Below are positions 27,564 through 47,455 of a stretch of 64,000 nt of DNA, piece by piece (position 1 is the stretch's first letter; every line of letters starts with the position of its first letter). The stretch comes from Candidatus Latescibacterota bacterium (GTDB lineage: Bacteria; Latescibacterota; UBA2968): contig OZ242195.1 of NCBI GenBank assembly GCA_965205975.1, forward strand, positions 2,624,001 through 2,688,000, written 5' to 3'. The notes beneath the pieces are model-generated. The model was not told where the DNA came from and made no database searches. It was given only the letters and a program-made list of their open reading frames with translations. A program made the translations under genes and the position numbers.

Positions 27564-27568
27564 GTGTT

Positions 27569-31948: not shown

Positions 31949-33079
31949 TTAAGTGATTCGACAAACTCTGGAATCACTTGCTCCCATTCCAGTGTGTTGG
32001 GCTTTTAATACAACAACAATTCGCTCTGCGGTGTTGCCATCCCACAACTCGGGTAAGCGGCCAGATTTATAATGTCCGTTCAAAACAGATTCAGCCTCTG
32101 CAACAATGCGTTCAGGACAAACACCCACAAGTGTGTTCGTCCCAATATCTATAGTCTCTGGGCGTTCTGTATTCTCTCTAAGCGTCAAACACGGCACACC
32201 CAAAGACGTCGTCTCTTCTTGCAATCCTCCAGAATCTGTCATCACAAATTTTGCATTCTTCTGAAGTTTCAAAGAATCGAGATAGCCAACGGGATCCATA
32301 AGTTTGACATTATCCATCATCTCAAGCCCTTGCAAAAAACCGAATTGAGATAGGCGATTGCGCGTTCTCGGATGCAAAGGCCACGCGATTGGACATTTGA
32401 GAACTTGCAACGCGGATAAAATGCCAGCCAACGTATCTGGACAATCGACATTTGAGGCGCGATGGAGGGTTAGAAAAACGTACTCTTGAACTGATAAACC
32501 GTGTATATCCAGAATGCTGGATTCATCAGCTTTGGGAGATAGCAACACAAGGGAATCGATCATCACATTGCCCACAAAATGAATGCGGTGATCTTCTATG
32601 CCTTCGCGCCTCAGATTTTCACATGCCTGCTTCGAGGGTGCAAATAACAGATCGCTTATGGCATCCACAACGAGCCGATTGATCTCTTCGGGCATTGAAC
32701 GGTCCCAACTTCGCAACCCTGCCTCTATGTGCCCAACGGGGATTTGCAATTTTGCGGCATCCATCGCACATGCCAAAGTGGAATTTACATCCCCAACCAC
32801 AAGAACCCAATTCGGCCTTTCTTGAAGTAAAACCTCCTCAAATCCCATCATGATCTGCGCTGTCTGGTAAGCGTGACTGCCCGACCCCACATTTAATTCA
32901 TAATGTGGCCTGGGAAGATTTAAGTCTCGAAAAAAAATCTCGGACATAAAATCGTCGTAGTGCTGTCCCGTATGCACCAGAATCGGATCAAACACATCGG
33001 GCGTCTTGACAAGTTGATACCACAGCGGAGCAACTTTCATAAAATTCGGCCGTGCACCTGCAACAAGAATAATTTTCAC
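31949..33079 (-). CDS. wecB: UDP-N-acetylglucosamine 2-epimerase (non-hydrolysing)
   Basis: GARPNFMK, HTGQH, HIEAGLRS, TDSGGLQEE, TERPET. Confidence 0.95.
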   Translation of the reverse strand: MKIILVAGARPNFMKVAPLWYQLVKTPDVFDPILVHTGQHYDDFMSEIFFRDLNLPRPHYELNVGSGSHAYQTAQIMMGFEEVLLQERPNWVLVVGDVNSTLACAMDAAKLQIPVGHIEAGLRSWDRSMPEEINRLVVDAISDLLFAPSKQACENLRREGIEDHRIHFVGNVMIDSLVLLSPKADESSILDIHGLSVQEYVFLTLHRASNVDCPDTLAGILSALQVLKCPIAWPLHPRTRNRLSQFGFLQGLEMMDNVKLMDPVGYLDSLKLQKNAKFVMTDSGGLQEETTSLGVPCLTLRENTERPETIDIGTNTLVGVCPERIVAEAESVLNGHYKSGRLPELWDGNTAERIVVVLKAQHTGMGASDSRVCRIT

Positions 33080-33092
33080 CTGCCTACTCCTT

Positions 33093-33872
33093 CTATTTCG
33101 GAGTTTCCACCTGCCAAATCGGATACCGTATATCTGCCCGCTGCATCTCTCGTTGCAACCATTGATTAAACAGAAGCTTTCGGATCTCCTTTGCTATCCG
33201 CCCGTCCAGCATTGTCGGATAGAGTTCCTGTAATAAATACAGCGCAAAGCCTTTCGATACTTTTTCTGGACCAAAAATTTCACCTATCGAAGCGGCAAAC
33301 ACGCGCGCAGCAATCCCCTTTGGCAACTGCTTCCGCCGAACACGACCCAAAAAGCCACTACCTGATCGCGTGTGTGCATCTTGAGAAAACCGACGCGCCA
33401 TCGCGTGAAAATCTGCACCTTCTTCCCGTATCTGCAAATCAACCTCGTCGATCACATCCTTATCCATGTGAAAAATCCAGCAAATCTCCGCCTCATCAAA
33501 TTCCAGCGTGTGCTGTGCAAAATAGGATTCGACCTGCCCCTCGGCGATCTTCTCAGACAGCAAATACTCCAGTCGCCTCACCTCGGCATCTTCTGCCACA
33601 TCCTGAAGTGTAATACCCCGCTTTGCAAGATAGGCTTCTGTATCTTCTACCCGCTCCAAACGATGTTGATACCGCCAGTCATTCACCTTGCGCTGGATAT
33701 CCTCCGGCGCTGCACAAACACCCTCGCGTCGGGCGAGTTGGCGTATCAATTCTCTACGCGCAAATTCATTAAAAAAATGCAGATTATCAGCAACACCCAA
33801 TTGTCGCACGACATGGTGCAACGACACCTCGACATCATTGACCTGAACCAGTATAGCATCCTCTGACATCAC
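33093..33872 (-). CDS. PpiC-type rotamase / SurA-like chaperone associated with the peptide exporter
   Basis: FHAMARRFSQD...GFLG, VFAAS.GEIFGP, LFNQWL. Confidence 0.8.
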   Translation of the reverse strand: MMSEDAILVQVNDVEVSLHHVVRQLGVADNLHFFNEFARRELIRQLARREGVCAAPEDIQRKVNDWRYQHRLERVEDTEAYLAKRGITLQDVAEDAEVRRLEYLLSEKIAEGQVESYFAQHTLEFDEAEICWIFHMDKDVIDEVDLQIREEGADFHAMARRFSQDAHTRSGSGFLGRVRRKQLPKGIAARVFAASIGEIFGPEKVSKGFALYLLQELYPTMLDGRIAKEIRKLLFNQWLQREMQRADIRYPIWQVETPK

Positions 33873-35254
33873 AACGCCCCCTCTTGCACATCGTATCTCG
33901 CCGACTCGTAAAGCTGTCGCAAAGGAGAAAGCAACATCAGCAAAACCGATTGCCGATCGGTCATAATCTCCGCCGTACCCTTCATGCCGAACATCAAAGG
34001 CTTGTCATATCCCTTCACACGCATCGTATTTTCTTCCAGTTCAACAACGCACTTAAATAGCGGTCCAATACGTTCATCAATCACCGCATCAGGTGAGATG
34101 TATATAAGCCACCCGCGTTTGATGCCAAAATCCTGAAAGGCATAAGCATCGTATTTCAGCTTGACCAACTGCCCGGGCTTGAGCAAACCCACATCTTTAT
34201 TCAACACCATCACCTCTGCAACCATCGGTGCCGAGGTCGGTGCCAGCGCAATTAGAGCCTGCCCCTTGTTGATCACCTGTCCCATCGCATTCACCATCAC
34301 CTGTGTGACAATGCCCGACTCAGGTGCTAAGATCAAATCCGACTCAGCTTCAAGGGTCCGATCAATGCGTTTGCGTGCCTGTTCCAATCGCAACTGTGCA
34401 GTCTCATAAGCGTGTCGCATCTGCGATGCCTCCCGCTCGTGTGCAATACGCGCCTCTGTGATTTGACGCTTGAGATCAGCCACAGCCATTTCATTCTTGT
34501 ATATCTCCGACATGCGCGATGGAAGCGCGGATAGAGCACTCAAATACTGCACACGCGCGCGATTCATAGCCGCCCGGCTGATCAACTCGCGCTCAAACAG
34601 CGTCTTTTGCTGCAAAAACTCCCCTTTCATAAGGTCAATCTCAGCCTGTCGAAATCCAATCTGCGCTTGCAATCCCGCATCAGATGTTTTGCTTTTCGAT
34701 CCGACACCATCCCCCACATCACTGTGATAATCTTCCAATGCATCCTGGTGCGCCTCCATAAACTGCTGCAAAACAGACAGGCGTTGCTCCAATACCCCTA
34801 TCGTCTCTCGATTTAACCTCGCCCTTTGTGGCAACACCGTCTTGAGATCGTACTCTGCCTTTTGAAAAGCCATCTTTGCCTGCTCCCATTCCCGCAACTC
34901 TCCCCAGGTCTCCCACGATTTGAGCTTAAACAATACCTCACCCTTCTCGACATGATCTCCCTCTTTCACGCCAATCAACTCAATCTCACCACCTCGCTGT
35001 GCCTGCATCGTCTTCACCTGTCCGAGGGGCACCAACCGAAAAGGGGCTGATGCCACCACATCCACCTCGCCCCACCACGCCCAGGTAATGGCAACAATCA
35101 CAAATAGCAGGACAATATAGAGCAATGCACGACCCCAAAAGGGCCGCAAGGATCCCATAAACGCATGCACCTCTTCTGCCGCGTCATCTTGTCCCTGAAT
35201 GATACCGGGAGACATTGTTTCTGCTGGTGTCTCCAAAAACCGTTCTGCCATCAT
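33869..35254 (-). CDS. HlyD family membrane fusion protein
   Basis: N-terminal TM, VKEGDHVEKGE, coiled coil, NKDVG, KYDAY, ISPDA. Confidence 0.92.
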   Translation of the reverse strand: MMAERFLETPAETMSPGIIQGQDDAAEEVHAFMGSLRPFWGRALLYIVLLFVIVAITWAWWGEVDVVASAPFRLVPLGQVKTMQAQRGGEIELIGVKEGDHVEKGEVLFKLKSWETWGELREWEQAKMAFQKAEYDLKTVLPQRARLNRETIGVLEQRLSVLQQFMEAHQDALEDYHSDVGDGVGSKSKTSDAGLQAQIGFRQAEIDLMKGEFLQQKTLFERELISRAAMNRARVQYLSALSALPSRMSEIYKNEMAVADLKRQITEARIAHEREASQMRHAYETAQLRLEQARKRIDRTLEAESDLILAPESGIVTQVMVNAMGQVINKGQALIALAPTSAPMVAEVMVLNKDVGLLKPGQLVKLKYDAYAFQDFGIKRGWLIYISPDAVIDERIGPLFKCVVELEENTMRVKGYDKPLMFGMKGTAEIMTDRQSVLLMLLSPLRQLYESARYDVQEGAL

Positions 35255-38200
35255 ACCACCTGCAACTGTTGACTACACATGTGATAGTACAAACCCTCTT
35301 GCACCATCAACTCATCGTGTGTGCCCATCTCCACAATATGACCCTTGTCCAGCACCACAATCGCATCCGCATCGCGCACCGTACTCAACCGATGGGCGAT
35401 AATCAATGCCGTGCGATCATCTAAAAACAGATCTAAATTCGCCTGAATCACCTGTTCCGAATCCGTATCTAAGGCATTGGTCGCCTCATCAAAAATCAAA
35501 ATTTTCGGATCGCAATACAGCGCCCGTGCAATCGCAATCCGCTGCCGTTGTCCACCAGACAGCCCCACACCCTGCTCACCCACCTTTGTCTCATAGCCCA
35601 AAGGCATATCGCTCACGAAATCGTGGACACACGATAGCTTTGCCACTTCCAAAATGCGGTCCATGTCCGCATCTGACTGACCAATAGCGATATTTTCTGC
35701 AATCGTGCCAGAGAACAAAAACGGCTCCTGCATCACCATACCCACCTGTCGCCGCAACCAATGAGGGTCCAGATCCCGCACATCCATACCATCTAAGGTC
35801 ACGCGCCCTTCTGACGGATCAAATAAACGAGGTACCAGCTTGACCAACGTGGTTTTACCCGCGCCACTACGTCCCACAACCGCAACTTTTTGACCCGGCT
35901 CAAGAATCAGATCAATGTTATTCAACACATACGGTTCATCAGAACCGACACCATATCTAAAAAATACCCCCTCAAAAACCACGCGCCCTTCCAAATGCTT
36001 TAAGATCAAACCCTGACCCTGTTGCCGCGCATCCTCCATCTGCGTGTCATACACATCATTCAGCCGATCCAGAGCAATACGCGCTTCTTGCACCTGCGGC
36101 CATATCCCAATCAAGCCCATAATCGGTCCCATCACATTGCCAATCAGCGCATTAAACGCCATCAACTGTCCAACCGACAGATTACCTGCAATCACCAGGG
36201 AAGCACCATACCACAAAATCACCGTACTGCTCAACAAATTGATCACGCTTCCGATCCCCCCAAACAGCATCTGCATTTTTAACCGTTGAAAGCCAATCTG
36301 CATTTCCTTTGTGAACTTACCTTCCCAATGCCACCGTGTCGCGCGCTCAACCGCCTCGGCTTTGACCACATCAATGCCGTGTAGCGAATCAATCAAAACC
36401 GATGATTGTTCGGCACGCGCCAGAAAAGCGCGCTGGCTGAAAGCCTTCAAAATGGGTGTGTAAATCAGCGTGAGACCTATAGAAAGCGGCACAAATATCA
36501 GCATCACCAGCGTCAGTTCGGCATTGTAATAAAACATCAGACCCAGATAGACAAAGAGCATGATAAAATCCAGAACCGCAGAAACCGTCGCACCCGTCAA
36601 CAAACGCTGAATCGTTGCATTCTCCCGAAACCGCGTGGTCAAATCTCCCGTGCGCCTGAGAGCAAAAAACCGCATGGACAGCGCCAATAAATGCCGATAA
36701 AAACGCGACAACATCGCAATGCTCAACCGCGCACTTACATATCCGATTAAATAGACGCGCAACGTTGATGTGCCCATCTGGAACAACGCAACCACGACCA
36801 TCCCTACCAGCATCAAATTCAACAAATCCTCGTCGTGATGCACTAAGACCTGATCGATAATCGTCTGCATAAAAATAGGCGATGCCAGACCGAACAAACT
36901 GAGCACTAAAGACGCTAATAGTACCTCAATCAAAATGCCCCTATAAGGCCGGATCAATGGAAAAAACCGCTTAAAAGAAGACTGGGACGGTTCGTTCTCT
37001 GCCACCTGATCCGTGTATTCCAACAACAGCGCCATGTTCGTCCACCCCTTCTCAAACTCTGCCCGCGACAGCTTGCGAATGCCCACACCTGGATCTGCTA
37101 TCTTCACCTCCCTTTTATTTATCTGATACAAGACCACAAAATGATTGCCTTCCCAGTGAAGAATGGCTGGCAATTCTGTCCGCATCAGAGCTTCATACCC
37201 CGTGCGCACACCGCGCGTGACAAAACCTATGGTTTCCGCAGCCTCGGCCAAAGCCGCCATCGACGTGCCAGAACGCGACACATTGGACATATCGCGCAGC
37301 CTGTTCAACCCAATAGGCATCTTGTAATACTTACAGATCATGCCCAAACACGCCGCGCCACAATCCGATTGATCGTGTTGCTTCAAGAATGGGAAGCGAA
37401 ACCAAGTGGATGGTTTTGCACCGTCTATTCTGATATTAACCACATTGGATGCTGTATTGGATACCGTGTCTTCTTGGATAACAGATTGCTCAACCGGTGT
37501 GGCCTCTTGATACCCCGATGGGGACAGGGCTTGCCGATCATCCCGTGCCTGTCTAAACCCTGCTCCATTCGTTCGCTGTTCTCCGCGCGATATGCGGCCT
37601 GCCTCCAACGCAGCCTCAAATCCCGGTATCATAGCTTTTAACTTATTAAAATCGCTTTTATCTATGTAAAAAAGCACACTATCACGCCGAGTGCGAATGA
37701 TCGTTTCGTCATCTCTACCATCGCCAAAATAATCCCCCGGGCGTAGAATCACCGTATTCCCATTTTCCAACACCGCCTCCAACTGACCGCTGCCAATCAA
37801 ATAAAATCGCTGTCCGAATTGCCCTTGATCAACAACGGTCACACCCTCCTCAACCGCCTCGCGCTTTAGCCGCGCGAACAACACCCGCATCGCCTCGCCC
37901 GGAACATCCCCTTTCAAAAACCGCGTAAAATCCCGATACGCAATACAGGCAACCTGCTCTTCAAGATATGCCCTTACATCAGAACTTTTTCTCACAGCCT
38001 TAAAAAATTCATCCTTCGGCACCTGCAACATCTCCGCATCCTCAACCGCTCGCACCGTTGCCCGATGCCCCTGCCTGCTCAACAGTGCCCCTTCGCCAAA
38101 ATGATCACCCGCATACAAATAGCCCACGGTCATCGAATTGCCATTCCCATCCTGCTTCATCACCCGCAACCGTCCAGACTGCACAATGTAAAACGCCTCA

Positions 38201-38295
38201 CCTTCTTGCCCCTGTTGAAAAACAACACCTCCAAAGGGAAAGTGAACAGATTGTGACCGCACCGAGTTTTTAATGAAAAAATGCGAAAGATTCAT
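35251..38295 (-). CDS. Peptidase-containing ABC exporter (PCAT): two cNMP-binding domains, C39 peptidase, TMD, NBD
   Basis: GDHFGE and GDYFGD cNMP folds; QHDQSDCGAAC, ILHW..NHFVV, IADP C39 triad; GRSGAGKT, LSGGQRQR; ATG 38295 has a GGAG RBS. Confidence 0.92.
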   Translation of the reverse strand: MNLSHFFIKNSVRSQSVHFPFGGVVFQQGQEGEAFYIVQSGRLRVMKQDGNGNSMTVGYLYAGDHFGEGALLSRQGHRATVRAVEDAEMLQVPKDEFFKAVRKSSDVRAYLEEQVACIAYRDFTRFLKGDVPGEAMRVLFARLKREAVEEGVTVVDQGQFGQRFYLIGSGQLEAVLENGNTVILRPGDYFGDGRDDETIIRTRRDSVLFYIDKSDFNKLKAMIPGFEAALEAGRISRGEQRTNGAGFRQARDDRQALSPSGYQEATPVEQSVIQEDTVSNTASNVVNIRIDGAKPSTWFRFPFLKQHDQSDCGAACLGMICKYYKMPIGLNRLRDMSNVSRSGTSMAALAEAAETIGFVTRGVRTGYEALMRTELPAILHWEGNHFVVLYQINKREVKIADPGVGIRKLSRAEFEKGWTNMALLLEYTDQVAENEPSQSSFKRFFPLIRPYRGILIEVLLASLVLSLFGLASPIFMQTIIDQVLVHHDEDLLNLMLVGMVVVALFQMGTSTLRVYLIGYVSARLSIAMLSRFYRHLLALSMRFFALRRTGDLTTRFRENATIQRLLTGATVSAVLDFIMLFVYLGLMFYYNAELTLVMLIFVPLSIGLTLIYTPILKAFSQRAFLARAEQSSVLIDSLHGIDVVKAEAVERATRWHWEGKFTKEMQIGFQRLKMQMLFGGIGSVINLLSSTVILWYGASLVIAGNLSVGQLMAFNALIGNVMGPIMGLIGIWPQVQEARIALDRLNDVYDTQMEDARQQGQGLILKHLEGRVVFEGVFFRYGVGSDEPYVLNNIDLILEPGQKVAVVGRSGAGKTTLVKLVPRLFDPSEGRVTLDGMDVRDLDPHWLRRQVGMVMQEPFLFSGTIAENIAIGQSDADMDRILEVAKLSCVHDFVSDMPLGYETKVGEQGVGLSGGQRQRIAIARALYCDPKILIFDEATNALDTDSEQVIQANLDLFLDDRTALIIAHRLSTVRDADAIVVLDKGHIVEMGTHDELMVQEGLYYHMCSQQLQVV

Positions 38296-38336
38296 TTTTC
38301 TAATTACTCCATTATGTGGATGAGCGCATATCCATC

Positions 38337-39200
38337 TCAATTATCGCATACCGGAGTTTCCTCAAGCTCAACCTCCGCCTCACGGTGATCTGTTTCTTCG
38401 CGCTTTGCCAACTGATAAAACCACCACAACCCAAGAACAGCCAATATTGGTCCGCACACATTCAACCACCACGGATTGTGAACCACAACATTAAAATCTT
38501 CTGAAACTGGAAAACCCGGTACATCGAAATGCAGAAATGTTGTAGCCAGAAAATTGTTCAGAGCGTGTCCCCAAATTGCAGGCCATAAAGACCCCGCTTG
38601 GATGACCCAATAGGCAAAGACAAGCCCTAATACAAAAGCCCCTGGAAATTGCCACGGATTCAAATGTATTAGACCAAATAAAATTGCCGACCACATAATC
38701 GCCCGATTTTGAGTACCATGTGCCAATAAACCTTTCAAGATAATGCCTCTAAAAACGACCTCTTCAATAAAAGGTGCTATCACAACTGCGCCCAATAAGG
38801 CTGACAGATAAGATGTTTTTTTGCCGAAAGATTGATGAAAGATGTCCTGAAATATATCTGGCATTGGCAAAACAGATATAACCGCATTGTACAATTCAGA
38901 AAGAACAACCCCCAGTCCAAAGATAGATAATCCAACGGAAAGCCACATGCGCCAGTCATAGTCTATATTTCTAATCGCAAGAGGCAACATATCTTTCCAG
39001 GTTCGACCCGTTCGATGCGAAATATAGCACAAAATCAGAATAAATTTTACCAACGACAAAAGCCAGAAAGAGTAATCATACTCAAACAAAGGTTTGTCAA
39101 TAATGGCACCTATAATGTCAATCAATATGGTCAAACCAAATGCGATGAGGATATATAATACCAGCAGCCAAACAGACTGTTTCAGATTTGGATACGTCAT
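38337..39200 (-). CDS. CPBP (Abi/CAAX) family intramembrane metalloprotease
   Basis: EEVVFRG, FGLIH, HALNN motifs intact. Confidence 0.9.
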   Translation of the reverse strand: MTYPNLKQSVWLLVLYILIAFGLTILIDIIGAIIDKPLFEYDYSFWLLSLVKFILILCYISHRTGRTWKDMLPLAIRNIDYDWRMWLSVGLSIFGLGVVLSELYNAVISVLPMPDIFQDIFHQSFGKKTSYLSALLGAVVIAPFIEEVVFRGIILKGLLAHGTQNRAIMWSAILFGLIHLNPWQFPGAFVLGLVFAYWVIQAGSLWPAIWGHALNNFLATTFLHFDVPGFPVSEDFNVVVHNPWWLNVCGPILAVLGLWWFYQLAKREETDHREAEVELEETPVCDN

Positions 39201-39300
39201 CTCTTTCCTTCTTGATAACTGATGTTACGCAGTGGTGAGTTGATTTTTTGTTCAAAGTATGGACAAAAAATCTAATAAGCTGTTTTAAAATTATTGAGAG

Positions 39301-39661
39301 TTAAAAAGTTTCGCGCTTCGCCACCTGAAAAAACCACCACAACCCAATCACAGCCAATAGTACCGCACACACATCTACCCACCACGGCAAAAAGATCAAA
39401 GCTTCTGAAATTTTCCCAAAGCCCGGTATTCCTGATCGTGCCAAGGTAACGGCCAAAAAACTGTTCAGTGCGTTTCCCAAAAGACAAGGCAACAAAGACC
39501 CCGTTTGAATAAACCACCATGCGAATACAAGTCCAAATGTGAAGGCCAGGGGAAATTGCCACGGATTCAGATAAGATAAAAAAAATAAAATTGTCGACAA
39601 AATAGCGGCCTGAGACTTTGAGCAACAGACCAATAAACCACCTAAAATAATGCCTCGGATC
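39301..39661 (-). pseudogene. Decayed CPBP paralogue fragment abutting the IS3 element
   Basis: IRGIILGG...YLNPWQFP...GNALNS aligns with the intact neighbour but lacks both conserved His residues and the EE motif. Confidence 0.75.
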
Positions 39662-39701
39662 TGTAACCCAAAATTTGAACCAGTTAGTAGGCTAATTTAC
39701 G

Positions 39702-40610
39702 CTAAGGGTCAGTCGTGATATTTCTCATAAGAATGGCCTGCACCACTTCTTGTGGCGTCTGGTAGCCCAAGGCAGAATGCCTTCGATCTTGATTGTAATA
39801 CGTCATTTGTTGCCCAATCACACAAATCAGTTCTGTCAAAGCGTCTGCGTGCATAATCAACGTTTTGTTTTCGGTCTTAAAACGTCCCCAAAAGGACTCT
39901 ATCCACGGATTATCTTTTGCCCCATTCATCGCAAAAGAAATCCCTGCACCTTCTCTTATCAATACACGGTGTAACCAGTCGTATGAGGTGTAAACCGAAT
40001 CGCGGTCGTGATGAATGAGGATGTCAGACAGTCTCCTGTCCAAACAGCTCAGGTTGTTTTGCAACTGGTCCAGACAGTATATCGCCAGGGCACGGTTGCG
40101 ATGTGCGCCTACGCCAAAGCCTGCGATCCACCTTGTCTGGATGTCCAAAAAGGCCATTAACCACGCTTTTTTCTGTCCTTGGCAATAGAACAATTCTGTA
40201 AAGTCGGTGCAAAAGACACGCAAGGGATCAATGGTGCGGTTCTGGACTAAATTAGCGTCTTGTCCGACTTGGCTTATCAGCTTCAATACCGGATTCTTGC
40301 CGCGTTTTGGCAGATGACGAGGTAAGTCTAACTCATAAGTTGACAATAGCTTACGCAACCGCTTATGATTGATCACGATGCCAGTACGGGCTTTTATATC
40401 TTCCTTGATGCGACGATACCCATAATCAGGATGATGCCTGATCGTCGTGATGATCTCATCCTTTATCTGGGCATCTTCACCCGAACAAGAGGCCCGACCG
40501 CGACGATAGGCAAGCGTCCCTTTCGACAAGCATAGGGCACGGCAGCACATATTTAGACCATACCTGTCTTTATGCCTCTCGACCAGTTCTACTTTGTCTG
40601 ACACGCTCAA
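39702..40610 (-). CDS. IS3 transposase OrfB (DDE)
   Basis: YGYRRI, CTDFTE, HHDRDSVY, DNPWIESF, RRHSALGYQTP. Confidence 0.92.
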   Translation of the reverse strand: MSVSDKVELVERHKDRYGLNMCCRALCLSKGTLAYRRGRASCSGEDAQIKDEIITTIRHHPDYGYRRIKEDIKARTGIVINHKRLRKLLSTYELDLPRHLPKRGKNPVLKLISQVGQDANLVQNRTIDPLRVFCTDFTELFYCQGQKKAWLMAFLDIQTRWIAGFGVGAHRNRALAIYCLDQLQNNLSCLDRRLSDILIHHDRDSVYTSYDWLHRVLIREGAGISFAMNGAKDNPWIESFWGRFKTENKTLIMHADALTELICVIGQQMTYYNQDRRHSALGYQTPQEVVQAILMRNITTDP

Positions 40611-40891
40611 CGGTTGCCTAAAAAATTTTTGAGCAGAGCCAGTTCGACTTCTTTCTGACCTAACAGGCGCTCCAGATCAGACACACGCGCTTCATACGTC
40701 TTGACCGTATCGTTGCCAGAGAAAATCTCTGCACCACTGTCTATAAACTGACGCTTCCAATTTGATAGACTCACCGGGTGCACATCGTAAGCGCGAGCGA
40801 TTTCTGCATCCTCTTTGTCTGAGGTCAGTGCTTCTAACACGATCTGGAACTTGAGTTTAGCCGAGTAGGACTTCTTGGTTTTCTTACCCAT
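40607..40891 (-). CDS. IS3 transposase OrfA (HTH)
   Basis: YSAKLKFQIV HTH; T TTT TTA slippery site near the 3' end. Confidence 0.9.
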   Translation of the reverse strand: MGKKTKKSYSAKLKFQIVLEALTSDKEDAEIARAYDVHPVSLSNWKRQFIDSGAEIFSGNDTVKTYEARVSDLERLLGQKEVELALLKNFLGNR

Positions 40892-41138
40892 GGTATCTCC
40901 TCCTGTTGGTGAGAAAATACCACGATGATACTCAATGTCAATTAGCCTTTATACCGGGTCAACTTTTGGGGCGCACCTCAAAACGTTACAATCAGGCATT
41001 TTTAGATTATCTATGATGGTGTTCTTCTGAGGATACAGCGATAGCTTCTGGTAGTATATAGGGAACCTGGTTTTGATGGATGATCTTGAATCCATTTGTC
41101 ATTTTTCACTGAAACTATAAAAATACTCACCTGTTCCT

Positions 41139-41696
41139 CTACTCCTCTTTTTTTTGAAATATTTGAGCTATACCAAAAGCTGTAGGATGTCCTATAACGA
41201 TACATTCTCTATTAAATTTTCTTAGTTTTATAAGATCTGAGATATCTTTAGCACTAATTGCGAGCGCAAAACTCAATATATTGGCGGACCAATAAGATAA
41301 AGAAAGGCAAAAAAGTACTATACAAATACTGCCAGTAGTGATGAGAGGGGTAATTAATGCTTTTCTTTGACAACCTACTGAAACAGGGACCTTACATGCA
41401 CAAAATAGCACTAACCAGTATATATAAAATCCGAAATAGATATTATCTCGATCAATTTTTCCCAATTTGTGGTAAGCGACAAAATGAGAGAGTTCATGTA
41501 TAACTAAGATAATAAGAGCTGCAAGAATCATTGTTAAATAATCATCTTCCCATTGGACCTGAATCTTTTGTTCCTCCAAAAAGGAAAGTATCGACAAAAG
41601 AAAAATTAGCATGCTTGAATAAATGAGAACAGATGTGCCCCAAAGAACAATCAGGTTTGTTTTTATTTCGCCAACTTTATGTAGTACTTTTTTCAT
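41139..41696 (-). CDS. DUF3267-like membrane zincin peptidase
   Basis: TM segments, HELSH (HExxH), ALITP, SAKD; very AT-rich; start probably ATG 41696. Confidence 0.65.
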   Translation of the reverse strand: MKKVLHKVGEIKTNLIVLWGTSVLIYSSMLIFLLSILSFLEEQKIQVQWEDDYLTMILAALIILVIHELSHFVAYHKLGKIDRDNIYFGFYIYWLVLFCACKVPVSVGCQRKALITPLITTGSICIVLFCLSLSYWSANILSFALAISAKDISDLIKLRKFNRECIVIGHPTAFGIAQIFQKKEE

Positions 41697-41884
41697 ATAT
41701 AACTCAAGTTGTGTGGTATAGCGTAGCCATACTATAGGCCAAGACAAAGAAGCCCTTGCTGGTAACTTCAGGTTGTGGACACAGCGTTTTCGGGTGTGAA
41801 TCTGCTGTCTCCAATTTACATTGGAGCCTCTACTATTTCAACTAAGATAGGGACAATACCCAGAATAAGATGAAAGTAGAGAGA

Positions 41885-41920
41885 GTCGATGTCAAACCAC
41901 ATATGTAATTTGACATCGAC
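41885..41920 (-). terminator. Stem-loop downstream of the precursor genes
   Basis: Perfect 12-bp stem GTCGATGTCAAA / TTTGACATCGAC. Confidence 0.65.
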
Positions 41921-41935
41921 AAACAGTACTACAGA

Positions 41936-42307
41936 TTAATCAATAAGATCACTAACAAAATCTACGGCCGCATCCACACCTGCTTTAATCTCTTCCTTCC
42001 AGGTACCAGCAGCTACAGCTACAGCTGCAATTGCAGTTATAATAGGTGCTGCCCCTCCTCCTCCTGGCCCTGCGTTGTTTATTGTTGTGGTTGTGCTGTT
42101 GATAGTAACCATAACAGGTGGAGGCAGGAATTCAGATAGGAGCTCAACCAAAGGATTTGGTCCCAGGGGGACAACCATACGACCACCACCTACAACGTCT
42201 TGCATTTTCGGCAAATCCAACAACTTGTGTTTTACCTGCAATTTCGTACAGGTAACAAATCCTTCATCCGGATTCGTGATAATTCGATCAGTCTGTGTTT
42301 GAGTCAT
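41936..42307 (-). CDS. Putative RiPP precursor 3 (41-aa double-Gly leader, 82-aa core)
   Basis: GGAGG RBS; L(-12), M(-7), V(-4), GG; leader aligns with precursors 1 and 2. Confidence 0.75.
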   Translation of the reverse strand: MTQTQTDRIITNPDEGFVTCTKLQVKHKLLDLPKMQDVVGGGRMVVPLGPNPLVELLSEFLPPPVMVTINSTTTTINNAGPGGGGAAPIITAIAAVAVAAGTWKEEIKAGVDAAVDFVSDLID

Positions 42308-42414
42308 GATATCCTCCCAAAATAAATGAAGCAGAATTTATAACAAACTTTTCCACCTAAACTGGCCAACATATTCACTTTGCCAAATACTTATCGGGTT
42401 CTGAACTGTATTGG

Positions 42415-42633
42415 TCAGGGAAAAGGGTTAAAGATATCTTCCAAAATATCGTCCAAAATATCGTCCAGCGTCGGGTCAAAATCCTCACTGGTATCATCAC
42501 CTGGGACCGGGAAACATCCATCGGTACCAGAGATCCGAGCAATTTCAAGCCTATTCAAATCACTCGTTTTAATCGGCAGATTGGTCACACCTGTGACCGA
42601 TTGCTCAGGAATTGATATAATTCGTCTCGCCAT
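42415..42633 (-). CDS. Putative RiPP precursor 2 (37-aa leader ending GT, 35-aa acidic core)
   Basis: AAGGAGGTG RBS; L(-12), E(-8), I(-7), I(-4), G-T. Confidence 0.75.
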   Translation of the reverse strand: MARRIISIPEQSVTGVTNLPIKTSDLNRLEIARISGTDGCFPVPGDDTSEDFDPTLDDILDDILEDIFNPFP

Positions 42634-42660
42634 TCTTCCTCACCTCCTTTCTTTACTGCC

Positions 42661-42720
42661 TCAGCGCAAATCGCTGAAATGTCGAATTTTGCGAAACGTT
42701 CTGTGGATCGTGGCACGATT
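42661..42720 (-). pseudogene. Duplicated 3' end of the upstream glycosyltransferase
   Basis: Encodes NRATIHRTFRKIRHFSDLR* versus GT end TRATAHKTLRKIRHFSDML; 42670-42706 matches 43019-43055 at 33/37 nt. Confidence 0.85.
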
Positions 42721-42721
42721 C

Positions 42722-42946
42722 CTACCAAGAATCCCACCATTCACTCACTGTATCTTCGACATAATCCACCGCATCTTCGATATAATCAATAATATCTTCA
42801 AAGAGCTCAAGTGGATCTTCTCCTGGCAAAATGCATCCTCCTGCTGCATTCGCCATCTCACCATGTGCCAGTTCTATTTCTTGACCGGGGAGTTGAACAC
42901 AGGTCACAGAAACTTGTGCTGGCATTGATGTAATGCGCTTCGTCAT
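42722..42946 (-). CDS. Putative RiPP precursor 1 (37-aa double-Gly leader, 37-aa acidic core)
   Basis: AAGGAGGTG RBS; ELAHGEMANAAGG fits the double-glycine consensus. Confidence 0.8.
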   Translation of the reverse strand: MTKRITSMPAQVSVTCVQLPGQEIELAHGEMANAAGGCILPGEDPLELFEDIIDYIEDAVDYVEDTVSEWWDSW

Positions 42947-43000
42947 TTTCTCGCACCTCCTTTCTTTTCCACCTCAACATAAGCCATATCCCTTCGCCAA

Positions 43001-44404
43001 TCAGGGAGCCGTGAGCATATCGCTGAAGTGTCGGATTTTGCGAAGCGTTTTGTGGGCTGTCGCGCGCGTTTCACATAAACCCAACAGGACGGCTTCGACT
43101 TCGTTTGGGTGTAAATGTTGCATCAAGTGAAGGCCCAGGCCTTCAATAAGGGACATATCTTGTCCCAAAAACGAAATGCGCGGCAATGGGCCTTGCACGC
43201 TTCCCAAATAGTTAAATCCCTTAGACACACTTTGCGGCACACCAGATACATCACAACCCTGTGTAAAACTCACGGTTATTGGTATCGGGCAGGCGGGTGC
43301 ATCGCGTTTGATCCGCAAATTTTCAAACAGTGCCATGTGCTGCTGCGCCGTGTGATCCCAGGAAAATTCGAGCGCGCGTTTGCGAGCACCCTCTCCCAAT
43401 TTCTCCCGCTCCGTTTTGCTATTCAACAAATCGCGTACAACATCTGAAATCACCTCAGGAGCGATATAACCCGTCACATTCAATGGCTCATCTTCAAACC
43501 GCTCAATCTCTATCAACCGCCCACAACTACCCAACAACTCTGGCGCACCCGCAAAATTTGTCGCCACAACCGGAAGACCACACGCCATGCCCTCTATCAC
43601 AGTTGAAGGACACGACTCATACGAATACACCGACAACGCGCACAACACATCCAGCATATTGTAATACAGCGGCATATCCGTATAGGGTTGCGCGCCCAAA
43701 AATATCACATTGGGCGAATGTGTCACAGGTGCGAACTGCTTGCCAATCACCGCAAACAACACATTGGGATTCAGATCGGCCATTCGCAAAAACGGATACG
43801 CACCCTTGCCCGGCTCAAACCGCCCACAAAAACCCACCACAGGCATCTCCAAAAAGCGTTGATCACCCGTCTTATCCGCGACCTCTTTGCGCGCTTGCAA
43901 CTTATCCATCGGCACAAACACCTCGGCATCTACCCCATTGGTAATAGGGCGCAAATACGATCGGTCAAACACCAGCTTGCCCACTTCCTCAGCGACATAC
44001 GCCGACTTGGGGGACAAAGCATCATAAGGCCGCAACAGCGAATAACATTGAAGCACCTTATCCATAAAATCGCGATTGCGTCCAAAAGAACACGACAGCC
44101 GAATCACAATGGGCGCGGGACACACATGGCGGAAAAATGCCAGGTCATCTACCCTGGGTTCAAACATCAGCACACCATCAAAATCCTGCCGCACAAACCA
44201 CTGGCGCGACGTATCAATCGTCTCAAATGCGGGTTGAATACCGTGCATATTCGGACCATAATCCACCGCTTCAGACGCTGGCATATACACCTCGCAATAC
44301 TTCGATAACGCCTGCACATGGTTAAAACCCGAAAGGGACGCCCCGCTATTCGACGCCATCACTTTCTCGCAGTCGTGATACGGGTGTGACACATAAATTT
44401 TCAT
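43001..44404 (-). CDS. GT4-family glycosyltransferase with ~100-aa C-terminal extension
   Basis: ITNGVD, GRFEPGKG, ESCPSTVIEGMACGLPVV (EX7E), FSWD. Confidence 0.85.
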   Translation of the reverse strand: MKIYVSHPYHDCEKVMASNSGASLSGFNHVQALSKYCEVYMPASEAVDYGPNMHGIQPAFETIDTSRQWFVRQDFDGVLMFEPRVDDLAFFRHVCPAPIVIRLSCSFGRNRDFMDKVLQCYSLLRPYDALSPKSAYVAEEVGKLVFDRSYLRPITNGVDAEVFVPMDKLQARKEVADKTGDQRFLEMPVVGFCGRFEPGKGAYPFLRMADLNPNVLFAVIGKQFAPVTHSPNVIFLGAQPYTDMPLYYNMLDVLCALSVYSYESCPSTVIEGMACGLPVVATNFAGAPELLGSCGRLIEIERFEDEPLNVTGYIAPEVISDVVRDLLNSKTEREKLGEGARKRALEFSWDHTAQQHMALFENLRIKRDAPACPIPITVSFTQGCDVSGVPQSVSKGFNYLGSVQGPLPRISFLGQDMSLIEGLGLHLMQHLHPNEVEAVLLGLCETRATAHKTLRKIRHFSDMLTAP

Positions 44405-44416
44405 CTTTCACCTCAT

Positions 44417-46969
44417 TTAGACTGATTCTATAAACTTTCGCGTTTGCTCGGCACCATCCATGGACAGATGGTGTTCGGACACAGAACTTTCGAGCATTTC
44501 GGCAATAGCTTTTGCCATCTTTCCCGTACCTATTTGATCGGGGTGTATCACCCCTGCAATACCCAACGCCATCAACTGCTGCGCGCGAAATTCCTGATCA
44601 TCCATTGCAATACTCGGCACCAGAATCGACGGGGCCTGTGTCTCGAGCACATTCATACACGTATTGTAGCCCGCCCGGCTAATCGATAAATCCGCGTGTT
44701 TCATCCACGCCAAAAAATTGGACGTAAAGCGCTCAAGGCGAAACGGACCATCACCGCATAACGCGCGCAAAGCCTCAAAATGCGTTTCATCGATAAACGC
44801 ACCGGCAAAAATCACCATCTCGCGTCCATCGTGCGCAACGTCCTGCTCCAATTGTTTCCACGCTTCAATACAAGGTGCAATAAGCGCAAGCCCCTCAGCC
44901 CCGCCACCAGCACTGACCAACACATACCGATCAGGCGCAGGATCAGGTCGAGATACGTCCTCGAGTTTCTCAGAGATAAACCCCGTATAAACCACGGGAA
45001 TATCGATATCACCAGTCCAGGGAAAGTGATCTTCCAGCCGGGACAATTTGGAATCGCCATGCACCAATACCGCATCGAAATACTGATTCAACACGGGCAC
45101 GACCTCCTCGTAATACTGCCGATTAAAAGCCAAATACTCGTGATGTATCCCGCCAAAAGGCACCGAATAAAACCGCATCGCATCTCCATCGCGTCTCTGG
45201 GTAAGCGGAAAAGTCAGTTGCAACGCATCGCTTTTTGCCCGCGTTGGAATATCGCGCAGTGAACACAGCACCTTCGCGTCGGGATTGACCTCATTGAGCC
45301 TGACAATGGTATTGAGGATCTCGTTCTTGAGCGACCATCGGGAAAAGGGAAAAAACTCAACACAAAACACATCGGGACGAATCTGCTCCATCACGTCGGC
45401 AAGCTGTGTCTGGCGCTCGCGCATAACAGCCTGCAAATCGCGCTCCTTATCAACAGACTCAATACCCTGCGCACCCGTGCGAAGCGGCGGCAGAGGAATA
45501 CGTACCACTCCTTCATCGAGATCAGCTTCGGGAATTGGTCGCCCGCCATCGATAAAAAACACATCGCATGTCTTCACCAGTTCATTGACAATCTGTCGAT
45601 TGCGAAAATGGTGCCCAACGCCAATGAGGTGCTGGCTGTAAAATGCAACGCGTGTGCGGGTTTTTGCTTGTTGATTAATACATTCCATACGGGCAGGACA
45701 AACGGCTATCGCGGCCTCATAGATCCCGCGATAGCGTTCCACAACCTGCCTCCATGTGTGCTCTGACCGCACCCATTCGTTGCCCCCTTGCCCCAATTGC
45801 ATCCGCAGCGAGGGATTCTCGATGAGTTCGGCACACGTCTGGGTGAGACTTTCGACATCATCTGCCACAAAAACGCGCCCGGTTTCGCCGTCTGTAACCA
45901 CCTCCTTGAGTGCGGCTACATCGCTAACGACAACGGCTTTTTCCATCGCCATTGCCTCATAAGGCTTCATCGGCGTGACCAGTTCGGTAACGCGGCTACG
46001 CGTACGCGGAATAACAAAAACATCTAACATCGCGTAATATGCAGCTATTTGGTCGTGCGGTATTTCACCCGTAAAAATCGCCACATCCGCCAGACCGCGT
46101 TCCTGTGCTTCGCGCTGCAATGCTGGCAGGTCTCGTCCACCCCCCACAATCAACACTTTGAGATTGGCATACTGCCCGCGAAGAACCTCACACGCCTGCA
46201 ACAACAACCGCAATCCCTCCAGTGACCGCACCAGACCGATATAGCCCACCACCACATCTTCCGGTTCAATCCCCAGATCATTGGCAAGTTCGCCTGACCG
46301 ATTTTTGGGTGCATATTGCTCAACCGCCACACCATTGGGCACTACGCCAATTTTCTCTTCGTCAACCCCCTCGCGTATGCATTCTGCTTTCAACACCTCG
46401 GACAGCGTCACCACAGCATCGGCTCGTTGCATCGCATTGACATGTTGCGCGTGTTGCTGGCGATACACCTCTGAATCGGGAGCCAGCATACCCTGCGCCA
46501 CACCGCTATCGTGCCACAAACCCCGCACCTCGTACACCACAGACAGACCACAGTGATGTCCTATATCAATCGCAACCTGTGCATTTCTACCCGGTGACGC
46601 CGCGTGCAACACATCGGGTTTTTCTGTCTCAACAGCCCGCGCAACGCGTTTGCGAAAGTGTTGCTCCTGCCCCACACGATAGATTCGTGGGGTATCTGGC
46701 AATTGAAATTTGCCCAGACGTTCGGACAGACGTGCTGTGTATGCTTCAGAAGTATTTCTCAAATAAGGCACATCATTGATATATTCAATATCATCAGCGA
46801 GTTGCTCAGACACACCCCAGCGCGTGAGCACCACAGGATCAAAGCCGAGCGCTTTCTGCGTATTGATGATATACTGGCTTCGCAAACTGTAGCCGCTTTG
46901 TCGGTGTGGCAGCGAAACATCCAGAATATGTAATATCTTCATCGGCATAGGATTTTCAAATTGTCTCAT
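44417..46969 (-). CDS. Two-domain glycosyltransferase: N-terminal GT4, C-terminal COG4671/GT28_C-like GT-B
   Basis: VPNGV, ELVTPMKPYEAMA in the first half; FYSQHLIGVGH, VSAGGG, ISRAGYNT, DQEFRA in the second half; start may be 46942. Confidence 0.85.
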   Translation of the reverse strand: MRQFENPMPMKILHILDVSLPHRQSGYSLRSQYIINTQKALGFDPVVLTRWGVSEQLADDIEYINDVPYLRNTSEAYTARLSERLGKFQLPDTPRIYRVGQEQHFRKRVARAVETEKPDVLHAASPGRNAQVAIDIGHHCGLSVVYEVRGLWHDSGVAQGMLAPDSEVYRQQHAQHVNAMQRADAVVTLSEVLKAECIREGVDEEKIGVVPNGVAVEQYAPKNRSGELANDLGIEPEDVVVGYIGLVRSLEGLRLLLQACEVLRGQYANLKVLIVGGGRDLPALQREAQERGLADVAIFTGEIPHDQIAAYYAMLDVFVIPRTRSRVTELVTPMKPYEAMAMEKAVVVSDVAALKEVVTDGETGRVFVADDVESLTQTCAELIENPSLRMQLGQGGNEWVRSEHTWRQVVERYRGIYEAAIAVCPARMECINQQAKTRTRVAFYSQHLIGVGHHFRNRQIVNELVKTCDVFFIDGGRPIPEADLDEGVVRIPLPPLRTGAQGIESVDKERDLQAVMRERQTQLADVMEQIRPDVFCVEFFPFSRWSLKNEILNTIVRLNEVNPDAKVLCSLRDIPTRAKSDALQLTFPLTQRRDGDAMRFYSVPFGGIHHEYLAFNRQYYEEVVPVLNQYFDAVLVHGDSKLSRLEDHFPWTGDIDIPVVYTGFISEKLEDVSRPDPAPDRYVLVSAGGGAEGLALIAPCIEAWKQLEQDVAHDGREMVIFAGAFIDETHFEALRALCGDGPFRLERFTSNFLAWMKHADLSISRAGYNTCMNVLETQAPSILVPSIAMDDQEFRAQQLMALGIAGVIHPDQIGTGKMAKAIAEMLESSVSEHHLSMDGAEQTRKFIESV

Positions 46970-46999
46970 GTCTTTCCAGTACTTTTAAGACCTATTCTT

Positions 47000-47410
47000 T
47001 TATGAATTTTTTTGAATAAGGCTTTCGCATCTCACTTTTGCGCGGTAAGCGGTAAGAGACATGTCATTTACCTTCTTAAACACCTCACAAAAATACTTTG
47101 AGGACCGATACCCACACGCACTTGCAACCTCATAGGTCAGCAAGGATTGTTCACCTATCAAGTGCTGTGCATGAGCAATTCTGATCTCTCTCAACTTTTC
47201 TCGGAAAGGCTTGCCAACATGCTTTTTGAACAAGGCACTCAGATGCGTTCTGGAAAGTTTGAAATGATCTACGAGATCACTAAATTTGAGGTCCGGGTTG
47301 CTGTAATGCGCCTCCAAAAAGGCTTCAAACGCGATTTTCCAACTCGAATCTGATGGGATATGGGTTTTGACCTTCGCCAAAAACTTGCTCCTTTCAACTA
47401 CACTATTCAA
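47000..47410 (-). CDS. AraC-family regulator (DNA-binding domain only)
   Basis: HLSALFKKHVG, RIAHAQHL, VASACGY.SSKYFCEVFKK; TTG start. Confidence 0.85.
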   Translation of the reverse strand: MNSVVERSKFLAKVKTHIPSDSSWKIAFEAFLEAHYSNPDLKFSDLVDHFKLSRTHLSALFKKHVGKPFREKLREIRIAHAQHLIGEQSLLTYEVASACGYRSSKYFCEVFKKVNDMSLTAYRAKVRCESLIQKNS

Positions 47411-47439
47411 ACAGATATTTCACAGCTTAAACAAATATG

Positions 47440-47455
47440 TGCAATATGTGTGCCA
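47440..47455 (-). promoter_or_regulatory. Sigma54 (-24/-12) promoter of the RiPP-like operon
   Basis: TGGCAC-ACATA-TTGCA matches the TGGCAC-N5-TTGCW consensus, ~30 bp upstream of the AraC start. Confidence 0.8.

What the first reader, a model, noticed from the sequence alone, without database searches (positions are those of the whole stretch)
31949..47455. Candidate new glyco-RiPP system: double-Gly precursors, GT-B glycosyltransferases, WecB and a PCAT exporter
Seen: one co-oriented minus-strand run of AraC, a GT-GT fusion, GT4, three leader-bearing short ORFs, a DUF3267-like peptidase, CPBP(s), cNMP-C39-ABC, HlyD, PpiC and wecB. Known: C39 PCATs cleave double-glycine leaders and export RiPPs. 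Characterised glycocins (sublancin, glycocin F, thurandacin) use SunS-like GT2 enzymes, and sublancin and glycocin F have disulfide-bonded cores. Here the only recognisable tailoring enzymes are three GT-B domains plus a sugar-nucleotide epimerase, and the cores are acidic with at most one Cys. Inference: an exported peptide carrying a multi-sugar, possibly ManNAc-containing, glycan. I do not recognise this class.
Basis: partly seen in the sequence, partly recalled or inferred. Interest (0 to 1): 0.93.

Follow-up and report, generated by a model that had tools for sequence, protein, structure and literature searches.

The report
Peptide-sugaring gene cluster in uncultured bacteria
This is a real, apparently undescribed gene cluster of uncultured Latescibacterota that most likely attaches sugars to a serine motif in small, highly variable exported peptides, using a different class of sugar-transferring enzyme from the known sugar-bearing bacteriocins.

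Summary

The genome holds three copies. The constant core is a GT28-like domain, a 467-aa GT4, 1-5 precursors with one ~37-aa leader, an intact C39 PCAT, HlyD and PpiC. The GT4 is in 20 of 20 other genomes of the genus. WecB and the N-terminal GT4 form an optional, co-occurring module.

New here: the unrelated cores share [DE]-x-[VIALTF]-S-[DE] (58 of 72, 3.2 expected; 9 of 11 held-out). A sister genus keeps leader and exporter, lacks these GTs (0 of 15 genomes) and lacks the motif (0 of 42 cores). The GT4's nearest relatives carry an RRE.

Best reading: Ser-O-glycosylated exported RiPPs made by GT-B enzymes (0.65). Against: the contrast is one evolutionary event, two GT-bearing loci lack the motif, an early Cys co-varies too, and there is no biochemistry. 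It is not a glycocin by the defining GT2, but works like one.

The parts
47000..47410 (-). AraC HTH remnant of a receiver-AraC regulator; receiver domain deleted
   Evidence: PF12833; the relative in L035 is 277 aa and about 417 bp of it is missing between window 47398 and 47412
44417..46969 (-). 850-aa fusion: N-terminal GT4 (about 45680-46969, accessory) plus C-terminal GT28-like GT-B domain (about 44420-45655, constant)
   Evidence: PF00534, PF13579 and PF04101; TIGR04063 333 bits, under its 442 cut-off; C half in 20 of 20, N half in 12 of 20 other genus genomes
43001..44404 (-). 467-aa GT4 with intact EX7E (E263, E271) and a clade-specific C-terminal domain (residues about 370-467); proposed peptide-priming glycosyltransferase
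   Evidence: (pLDDT 92); RRE-fused relatives
42722..42946 (-). Precursor 1, 74 aa; GG site after residue 37; core starts with Cys; motif Ser68 (codon 42743-42745)
42415..42633 (-). Precursor 2, 72 aa; non-canonical G-T site by register; motif Ser49 (codon 42487-42489)
41936..42307 (-). Precursor 3, 123 aa; GG site after residue 41; motif Ser58 (42134-42136) and Ser119 (41951-41953)
42601..43066 (.). Tandem duplication relic: the 3' end of the GT4 gene and the start of precursor 1 are repeated in front of precursor 2 (75-81% identity)
   Evidence: families D1 and D2
41139..41747 (-). DUF3267 putative zincin membrane peptidase (accessory)
   Evidence: PF11667; patchy across loci and present in GT-less loci
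39667..40970 (-). IS3-family insertion sequence (orfA 40607-40891, orfB 39702-40610); not part of the system
   Evidence: NF033516; 45-nt inverted repeats; further copies in the genome
39301..39633 (-). C-terminal remnant of a second CPBP gene beside the IS
   Evidence: PF02517 positions 39-92 of 93 only
38337..39200 (-). CPBP (CAAX/Rce1-like) intramembrane protease; accessory, possibly self-protection or trimming
   Evidence: PF02517; also in all 13 GT-less loci; role recalled, not tested
35251..38340 (-). PCAT: two cNMP-binding domains, C39 peptidase with Cys-His-Asp motifs present, ABC exporter; probable true start ATG at 38295
   Evidence: PF00027 x2, PF03412, PF00664, PF00005; TIGR01193 above cut-off; motifs; start
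33869..35254 (-). HlyD periplasmic adaptor
   Evidence: TIGR01843 above cut-off
33093..33872 (-). PpiC-like protein, constant companion of the exporter
   Evidence: PF00639; TIGR04500 76 bits, under its 180 cut-off
31949..33079 (-). WecB, non-hydrolysing UDP-GlcNAc 2-epimerase; accessory, travels with the N-terminal GT4
   Evidence: TIGR00236; the genome's only two copies lie in clusters A and B

Best explanation
A RiPP pathway whose tailoring is glycosylation by GT-B enzymes. (1) Shown by sequence: several precursors share a ~37-aa PCAT-type leader and have unrelated, mostly acidic cores. (2) Inferred: in the cytoplasm the 467-aa GT4 binds the precursor and puts a first sugar on the Ser of [DE]-x-[VIALTF]-S-[DE]. 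(3) Inferred, weaker: the GT28-like domain adds a second sugar. Where the optional module is present, as in this window, the N-terminal GT4 adds a third from the WecB product, UDP-ManNAc or its uronic acid. (4) From established PCAT biology: the C39 domain cuts the leader and PCAT-HlyD exports the core. The products would be linear, non-disulfide O-glycopeptides used in competition or signalling. My odds: the GTs modify the peptides 0.7; the motif Ser is the main site 0.55; ManNAc-type sugar on the peptide in this copy 0.3. The order of the three GTs is a guess.
For: Precursors lie directly behind the GT4 in 34 of 35 loci and the GT28-like domain in front in 33 of 35. Motif in 58 of 72 cores against 3.2 in shuffles, maximum 10; 9 of 11 in cores found afterwards by a leader-only profile against 0.3. 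Ser is the top residue of 20 at that position, 66 of 82, next Gly 29, and Thr does not substitute. The motif Ser uses both AGY and TCN codons, even within one core family. Genus g6 has leader hits in 15 of 15 genomes but no match to the GT4, the GT28-like domain, the N-terminal GT4 or WecB (0 of 15 each) and the motif in 0 of 42 cores. In four core families shared by both groups it is 19 of 22 against 0 of 35; at one aligned site Ser is in 4 of 4 against 0 of 6 while the flanking Arg and acid stay. The GT4 falls in one clade (SH-aLRT 99) with GT4s whose extra N-terminal domain matches 5WGG_A 5-95 at E 1.2e-10 and the N-termini of three radical SAM proteins of this genome.
Against: The GT-less genus is one clade, so it is one independent contrast, and its cores also differ in length, charge and Ser content. 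The motif was found after looking at the data. Two loci with all three GT domains (L016, L057) lack it, and L181 has it although no such GT4 was found in its 82%-complete genome. Cys in the first three core residues co-varies as well, 30 of 72 against 0 of 42. The window's GT4 has no N-terminal RRE. One GT4 (L033) lies about 35 kb from its precursors. No product has been observed.
Confidence: 0.65

Rival explanations
1. The GTs glycosylate the peptides, but on Cys near the new N-terminus (S-glycosylation as in sublancin), or on both Cys and Ser; the Ser motif is then a docking or folding element.
For: Cys in the first three core residues in 30 of 72 cores from GT loci and 0 of 42 from GT-less loci; 65 of 65 precursor-1-type cores start with Cys, although that set was selected on this Cys; glycocin GTs accept both Cys and Ser (PMC12457901 passages).
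Against: 42 of 72 cores have no early Cys and 16 have no Cys at all, whereas all 72 have Ser and 58 have the motif; window precursor 3 has no core Cys.
Confidence: 0.12
2. The precursors are unmodified double-glycine bacteriocin-like or signalling peptides. The GTs are a co-regulated passenger module that makes a cell-surface, lipid-linked or small-molecule glycoside, and the motif loss in g6 is lineage drift.
For: g6 shows the export system persists without GTs. The best structural matches of the GT4 are small-molecule and lipid GTs (MshA, BshA, PimA/B, sucrose-phosphate synthase). The N-terminal GT4 is closest to a PEP-CTERM/exosortase-associated GT model. The fusion and WecB also occur away from these precursors (L183, L184).
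Against: No flippase, polymerase or chain-length gene among the cluster proteins. The other fusion-plus-WecB loci L183/L184 hold a radical SAM gene, ABC genes and, in L184, a small Cys/Asp-rich ORF. RRE-fused relatives. Site-specific Ser loss in homologous cores.
Confidence: 0.17
3. The GT-B folds act on the peptide but transfer something other than a plain sugar, or attach it to Asp/Glu/Tyr/Trp, or couple the peptide to a carrier.
For: GT-B folds with unusual chemistry appear among the fold matches (LmbT, SenB). The GT28-like domain has Asn where MurG-type enzymes have an acidic nucleotide-binding residue (MurG motif recalled). L016/L057 cores are Tyr/Thr/Lys-rich and lack the motif.
Against: Canonical EX7E and R/K donor-binding residues are conserved in the GT4 clade; the Asn is invariant in all loci checked, which argues for a kept function; WecB co-occurrence points to a nucleotide sugar.
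Confidence: 0.06

Closest known systems
Glycocins (sublancin, glycocin F, thurandacin, enterocin 96, thermoglycocin)
   Same: Glycosyltransferase plus C39 PCAT plus double-Gly-type precursor; glycosylation as the only apparent tailoring; Ser or Cys as likely acceptor (PMC9811515 and PMC12457901, passages).
   Different: Glycocins are defined by a SunS-like GT2 (PF00535) and all characterised ones have disulfides. Here there are only GT-B domains, no thiol-disulfide oxidoreductase, HlyD-type export, up to five unrelated acidic cores per cluster and a shared Ser motif.
Cacaoidin (lanthidin) cluster
   Same: Three GTs, one of them GT4 (Cao24), plus sugar-nucleotide genes, building a disaccharide on a RiPP (PMC8068269, passages).
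   Different: A lanthipeptide glycosylated on Tyr, with the first sugar assigned to GT2 enzymes and no C39 PCAT.
RRE-glycosyltransferase fusions reported by RRE-Finder
   Same: Noted as present in uncharacterised RiPP-like clusters (bioRxiv 10.1101/2020.03.14.992123 and PMC7470986, passages); the GT4's sister clade is RRE-fused.
   Different: The 2025 update names PF00535 (GT2) fusions (PMC12710340, passages); the window's GT4 is PF00534 and lacks the N-terminal RRE.
GG-Bacteroidales peptide system GT4 (TIGR04157)
   Same: A predicted GT4 in a double-glycine peptide system (model name; further context recalled).
   Different: Score 27 bits against a 400 cut-off; that system is recalled as radical-SAM-based, and this cluster has no radical SAM gene.
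GtfA/GtfB and SdgB, GT-B Ser O-GlcNAc transferases of serine-rich surface proteins
   Same: GT-B enzymes that O-glycosylate protein Ser and carry an extra domain; fold matches Z 22.7 and 22.8 (mechanism recalled).
   Different: They rank below small-molecule GT4s in the fold search; their substrates are large adhesins, not leader-cleaved peptides.

Membership tests
Glycocins | SunS-like GT2 glycosyltransferase (PF00535) | tested here: not met
   No PF00535 hit in any of the 16 proteins scanned; definition from PMC9811515
Glycocins | C39 PCAT in the cluster | tested here: met
   PF03412 plus ABC domains, TIGR01193 above cut-off
Glycocins | Disulfide-bonded core | tested here: not met
   Window cores have 1, 1 and 0 Cys; 46 of 72 family cores have at most one
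Glycocins | Sugar on Ser, Thr or Cys of the mature peptide; antibacterial activity | not testable with these tools
   Needs mass spectrometry and bioassay
Double-Gly leader / PCAT substrates | Hydrophobic residues at -12, -7, -4 and Gly at -2 | tested here: met
   Alignment A5: Gly invariant, Leu at -12 in at least 90% of 40 rows; all 72 fit the register pattern; rule from PMC10885120 passages
Double-Gly leader / PCAT substrates | GG, GA or GS at the cleavage site | tested here: inconclusive
   -1 residue is G 43, A 4, L 19, Q 4, E 1, T 1 of 72; precursors 1 and 3 are GG, precursor 2 is GT
Double-Gly leader / PCAT substrates | Catalytically intact C39 domain (Cys, His, Asp) | tested here: met
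   Motifs at residues 324, 395 and 414; activity itself not testable
CAZy-type GT4 retaining glycosyltransferase (467-aa protein) | GT-B fold and EX7E motif | tested here: met
   Model pLDDT 92; Z 33.8, rmsd 3.8 A, 340 aligned to 6kih; E263 and E271 in at least 90% of 48 rows
RRE-dependent RiPP enzyme | RRE domain in the window's GT4 | tested here: inconclusive
   No N-terminal RRE. The C-terminal domain has three strands then three helices in the full model, but profile alignment to the relatives' RRE gave probability under 1% and the domain-only model was weak
RRE-dependent RiPP enzyme | RRE domain in the GT4's sister clade | tested here: met
   Profile positions 9-94 match 5WGG_A 5-95 at E 1.2e-10; 5WGG is listed among RRE reference structures (PMC12710340 passage); weak PqqD hits in 2 of 35 proteins
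GG-Bacteroidales system (TIGR04157) | Score above the curated cut-off | tested here: not met
   27 against 400 bits
Proteusin / NHLP / Nif11 precursor families | Leader matches a described precursor model | tested here: not met
   42 precursors against Pfam and NCBIfam: best E 0.014-0.015, no family matched by more than 2 members
PEP-CTERM / exopolysaccharide locus | TIGR04063 above cut-off; flippase, polymerase and chain-length genes | tested here: not met
   333 against 442 bits; no such families among the cluster proteins

The most novel reading that the evidence does not exclude
A new RiPP class: linear, acidic, disulfide-free glycopeptides in which a dedicated GT4 clade reads a short Ser sequon in otherwise unrelated cores and further GT-B domains build a di- or trisaccharide, optionally ending in ManNAc or ManNAcA. 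It would be a sequon-directed peptide O-glycosylation system with a combinatorial precursor library, switched between glycoforms by gain and loss of a GT4-WecB module and lost entirely in a sister genus.
Probability: 0.4. Interest if true: 0.85.

Novelty: new variant of a known kind. Interest (0 to 1): 0.68.

Why it matters
Glycosylated RiPPs are few, and the class defined by glycosylation rests on GT2 enzymes and disulfide-locked cores. A GT-B route to linear glycopeptides would widen RiPP chemistry. It would also give a function to an unannotated GT4 clade that extends to RRE fusions in Poribacteria. A leader-guided O-glycosyltransferase that accepts unrelated cores and needs only a five-residue sequon would be a useful glyco-engineering tool. 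The prediction is cheap to test: named Ser residues, named enzymes, and natural GT-less counterparts as negative controls. The cluster is fixed in a whole genus of uncultured Latescibacterota, often in several copies, so it probably matters to their ecology.

Tried and rejected
C-terminal domain of the GT4 as an RRE: suggested by its secondary structure but not supported. The hhalign probability was under 1%, the domain-only model had pLDDT 69 with a poor sheet, fold searches gave only generic three-helix matches, best Z 7.8 over 49 residues, no RRE listed, and the atlas gave no usable hit. This is left open.

Structure prediction of the GT4-precursor complex: no result was obtained, so binding is untested.

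Gene context of the RRE-GT4 clade: the metagenome scan returned only generic GT4s (best E 4e-20) and the viral scan one weak hit. The only context seen is L161 (RRE-like ORF by eye, GT9, GT4, ABC transporter, PEP-utilising enzyme; no leader or PCAT noted).

The homolog search with the full precursor alignment gave the motif in 100 of 114 cores and in 12 of the 13 least similar ones. The query contained core columns, so I do not count it as independent.

Expression: contigs from four RNA libraries (coral, sponge and unlabelled metagenomes) cover pieces of related clusters at mostly 80-95% identity. The IS is covered as well and DNA carry-over is not excluded, so this is no proof of transcription or habitat.

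Promoter and terminator scans were at chance level (28 against 24.9; 18 against 16.3). The GT28-like domain has no solved relative by sequence.

WecB as a core gene: rejected. The adjacent plus-strand peptide ABC operon: not part of the system, as it does not flank copies B and C.
Full report
OBSERVATION. The exporter has two cNMP-binding domains, a C39 domain with its Cys, His and Asp motifs, and an ABC unit; HlyD, PpiC and WecB follow. Three things were missed. An IS3 element with 45-nt inverted repeats sits at 39667-40970 beside a truncated second CPBP. The AraC is the remnant of a receiver-AraC regulator that lost about 417 bp. Precursor 2 arose by a tandem duplication that carried the 3' end of the GT4 gene and has G-T, not GG, at the cleavage register. 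Record titles of close relatives name Ca. Latescibacterota in 20 of 21 loci, and one is titled Poribacteria.

THE CLUSTER IS A CONSERVED FAMILY. The genome has three copies at 83-93% protein identity for the core genes. The 467-aa GT4 matches 25 of 168 genomes of the phylum at E <= 1e-25: this genome, 20 of 20 others in its genus and four in three other genera, two of the 25 only in part. My locus table had 38 rows; I set aside three without a full-length GT4 (L032 and L058 broken, L056 cut by a contig end). Of the 35 left, 34 have precursors directly downstream, 33 the GT28-like domain and 33 the C39 domain; the misses are the solo GT4 L033 and contig ends. The N-terminal GT4 is in 15 of 35. 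WecB is in 8 of 35 fetched stretches and within about 4 kb of PpiC in three more; all 11 also have the N-terminal GT4. Among the 20 other genus genomes, 11 have both, 7 neither and 2 only one. So the constant core is GT28-like domain, GT4, precursors, PCAT, HlyD and PpiC, and the N-terminal GT4 with WecB is an optional module.

THE PRECURSORS. An iterated profile gave 72 distinct precursors in 20 core families. The leader of about 37 residues has invariant Arg, Leu and Gly and the hydrophobic -12/-7/-4 spacing that PCATs read (PMC10885120, passages). The -1 residue is Gly or Ala in 47 of 72 and Leu in 19, so cleavage of some members is uncertain. The leader matches no Pfam or NCBIfam precursor model (42 of the 72 scanned). 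In this genome the profile finds eight ORFs, all in the three clusters. Cores are 28-115 residues, 65 of 72 net acidic, and all contain Ser.

A SERINE MOTIF THAT TRACKS THE GLYCOSYLTRANSFERASES. I noticed by eye that unrelated cores share [DE]-x-[VIALTF]-S-[DE]. It is in 58 of 72 cores against 3.2 in composition-preserving shuffles, and in 13 of 20 family representatives against 0.7; the genome background is 1.8% of 52-residue windows, or 4.6% of acidic ones. All three window precursors carry it. With each of the 20 residues in the Ser position, Ser scores 66 of 82 and the next best 29. The Ser uses AGY codons 34 times and TCN codons 38 times, and both occur within the precursor-1 family, which points to selection on the residue. 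As a test after the fact, a leader-only profile was run over the phylum and hit 41 of 168 genomes. Eleven new cores from seven loci of the window's family carry the motif in 9 cases against 0.3 expected. The same search found genus g6, 15 of 15 genomes. I fetched 13 loci from 12 of them. They keep the leader, CPBP and a C39 domain at 85-91% identity, most also HlyD and PpiC, but no GT lies in the loci, and none of the three GT domains nor WecB was found with these queries in any of the 15 genomes, which are 92-100% complete. Their 42 cores have the motif 0 times (0.4 expected). In four core families shared by both groups the count is 19 of 22 against 0 of 35, and at one aligned site the Ser is present in 4 of 4 and replaced in 6 of 6 while the neighbouring Arg and acid remain. 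A tree of exporter and adaptor places g6 as one clade (100/99) next to the window-type clusters, with two GT-bearing clades outside it under midpoint rooting, which suggests one loss.

LIMITS OF THAT RESULT. One loss is one independent contrast. The g6 cores are also shorter, less acidic and poorer in Ser. L016 and L057 have all three GT domains and no motif; L058, whose GT4 is broken, also has none; L181 has the motif though its 82%-complete genome gave no GT4 match. A Cys among the first three core residues co-varies too, 30 of 72 against 0 of 42.

THE ENZYMES. The 467-aa protein folds as GT-B over residues 1-368 (pLDDT 92; best Z 33.8 to a sucrose-phosphate synthase, then BshA and HepE) and keeps the EX7E motif. 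A search of 1.84 billion representatives found a distant full-length clade, mostly 540-580 residues at 25-34% identity. These share the C-terminal domain, which 18 of 18 generic GT4s lack, and form one clade with the window's GT4 (SH-aLRT 99, quick tree). Their extra N-terminal domain matches 5WGG_A at E 1.2e-10, a structure listed among RRE references, and the N-termini of three radical SAM proteins of this genome. Some members are Poribacteria. The window's GT4 lacks that domain, and whether its C-terminal domain replaces it is open. The GT28-like domain keeps an invariant N-terminal Gly-x-Gly-His motif; its assignment to COG4671 is recalled, not from a call. The fusion with WecB and a UDP-sugar dehydrogenase also occurs in L183/L184 beside a radical SAM gene and, in L184, a small Cys/Asp-rich ORF.

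MECHANISM. Shown: gene content, conservation, intact catalytic motifs, leader family, motif enrichment and co-variation. From established knowledge: PCAT cleavage and export; WecB makes UDP-ManNAc. Inferred: the GT4 primes the motif Ser, the GT28-like domain extends, and the optional GT4 caps with a ManNAc-type sugar. An outer-membrane channel must come from elsewhere; I did not look for it. The biological role, competition or signalling, is a guess from cluster type.

COMPARISON. It works like a glycocin pathway but fails the two testable defining features, a SunS-like GT2 and disulfide cores (PMC9811515 and PMC12457901, passages). Cacaoidin has a GT4 among three GTs but is a Tyr-glycosylated lanthidin (PMC8068269, passages). 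RRE-GT fusions are noted as uncharacterised (10.1101/2020.03.14.992123, PMC7470986 and PMC12710340, passages). Supplement 7 of PMC7470986 was partly garbled and three of its files could not be searched, so the GT family meant there is unknown to me. Passages of three sponge-microbiome papers (PMC12993501, PMC9426513, PMC11832590) mention RiPP-like clusters or biosynthetic potential in Latescibacterota without this architecture; their supplements were not read. PMC10352776 (passages) lists GTs as accessories of radical SAM clusters. Ten full-text searches listed no paper describing this system; the library lacks most subscription journals. GtfA/GtfB mechanism, the MurG motif and the CPBP role are recalled.

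VERDICT. A real and apparently undescribed RiPP family with a specific, testable glycosylation prediction and a natural GT-less control. New variant of a known kind; interest 0.68, rising to 0.85 if sequon-directed multi-sugar glycosylation is shown.

Noticed in passing
G000:C1:2813351-2815002 (upstream of copy B), also C1:2907883-2909555 and C1:3084810-3086249: Three paralogous radical SAM genes with an RRE-like N-terminus, at least two with a 64-70 aa Pro/Asp-rich peptide gene directly upstream and all three near a large kinase-like regulator; a second, separate RiPP system.
   Followed up: partly
G000:C1:2156690-2164352: Operon of an acyl-carrier-like ORF, a paralog of the GT28-like domain, further GT-like genes, a subtilisin-like protein, a regulator and a 68-aa Cys-containing ORF; labels read by eye, not scanned.
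   Followed up: no
G000:C1:2491193-2500829: Run of GT2-like, GT4, GT28-like and GT4 genes, a 703-aa protein and a 116-aa Cys-rich ORF with a signal-like N-terminus; possibly another peptide-glycosylation locus.
   Followed up: no
L183:4597-19887 and L184:987-18201: The GT4-GT28 fusion, WecB and a UDP-sugar dehydrogenase in a different cluster with a radical SAM gene, ABC genes, an M50-like protein and an 82-aa Cys/Asp/Glu-rich ORF.
   Followed up: partly
L162-L174 (genus g6): A GT-less version of the system with 1-4 precursors per locus: an undescribed family of apparently unmodified double-glycine peptides.
   Followed up: yes
L025:11260-11526, L026:11188-11577, L173:8733-9080: One core family ends in runs of 4-7 Cys, in GT-bearing and GT-less loci alike; possibly metal-binding.
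   Followed up: no
P0045, P0049, P0050, P0052, P0055, P0057, P0058: RRE-bearing relatives of the GT4 with weak or no Pfam GT match; six form their own branch and may be inactive partners. P0051 is fused to a methyltransferase and P0002 is a tandem double GT.
   Followed up: partly
L033:6227-7630, L175, L176, L032 (genome G009): The cluster is broken into pieces: a solo GT4, a fusion-precursor-exporter block about 35 kb away, an orphan precursor array and a decayed second copy.
   Followed up: partly
L161:764-7987: In another family of the phylum, a member of the GT4 clade lies between an RRE-like ORF, a GT9, a peptidase-less ABC exporter and a PEP-utilising enzyme.
   Followed up: partly
window 31376-31828: 150-aa minus-strand ORF after wecB with a lipoprotein-like N-terminus, no family match and a single copy in the genome.
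   Followed up: no
window 25731-31369: Plus-strand peptide/oligopeptide ABC importer operon converging on the cluster; also adjacent in L029 and L035 but not beside copies B and C.
   Followed up: partly
L025:6148-8928, L026:14497-17274, L019:9331-11752: Variable cargo between precursors and exporter: S41 peptidase lipoprotein, TPR proteins and small membrane proteins, perhaps immunity or receptor genes.
   Followed up: no
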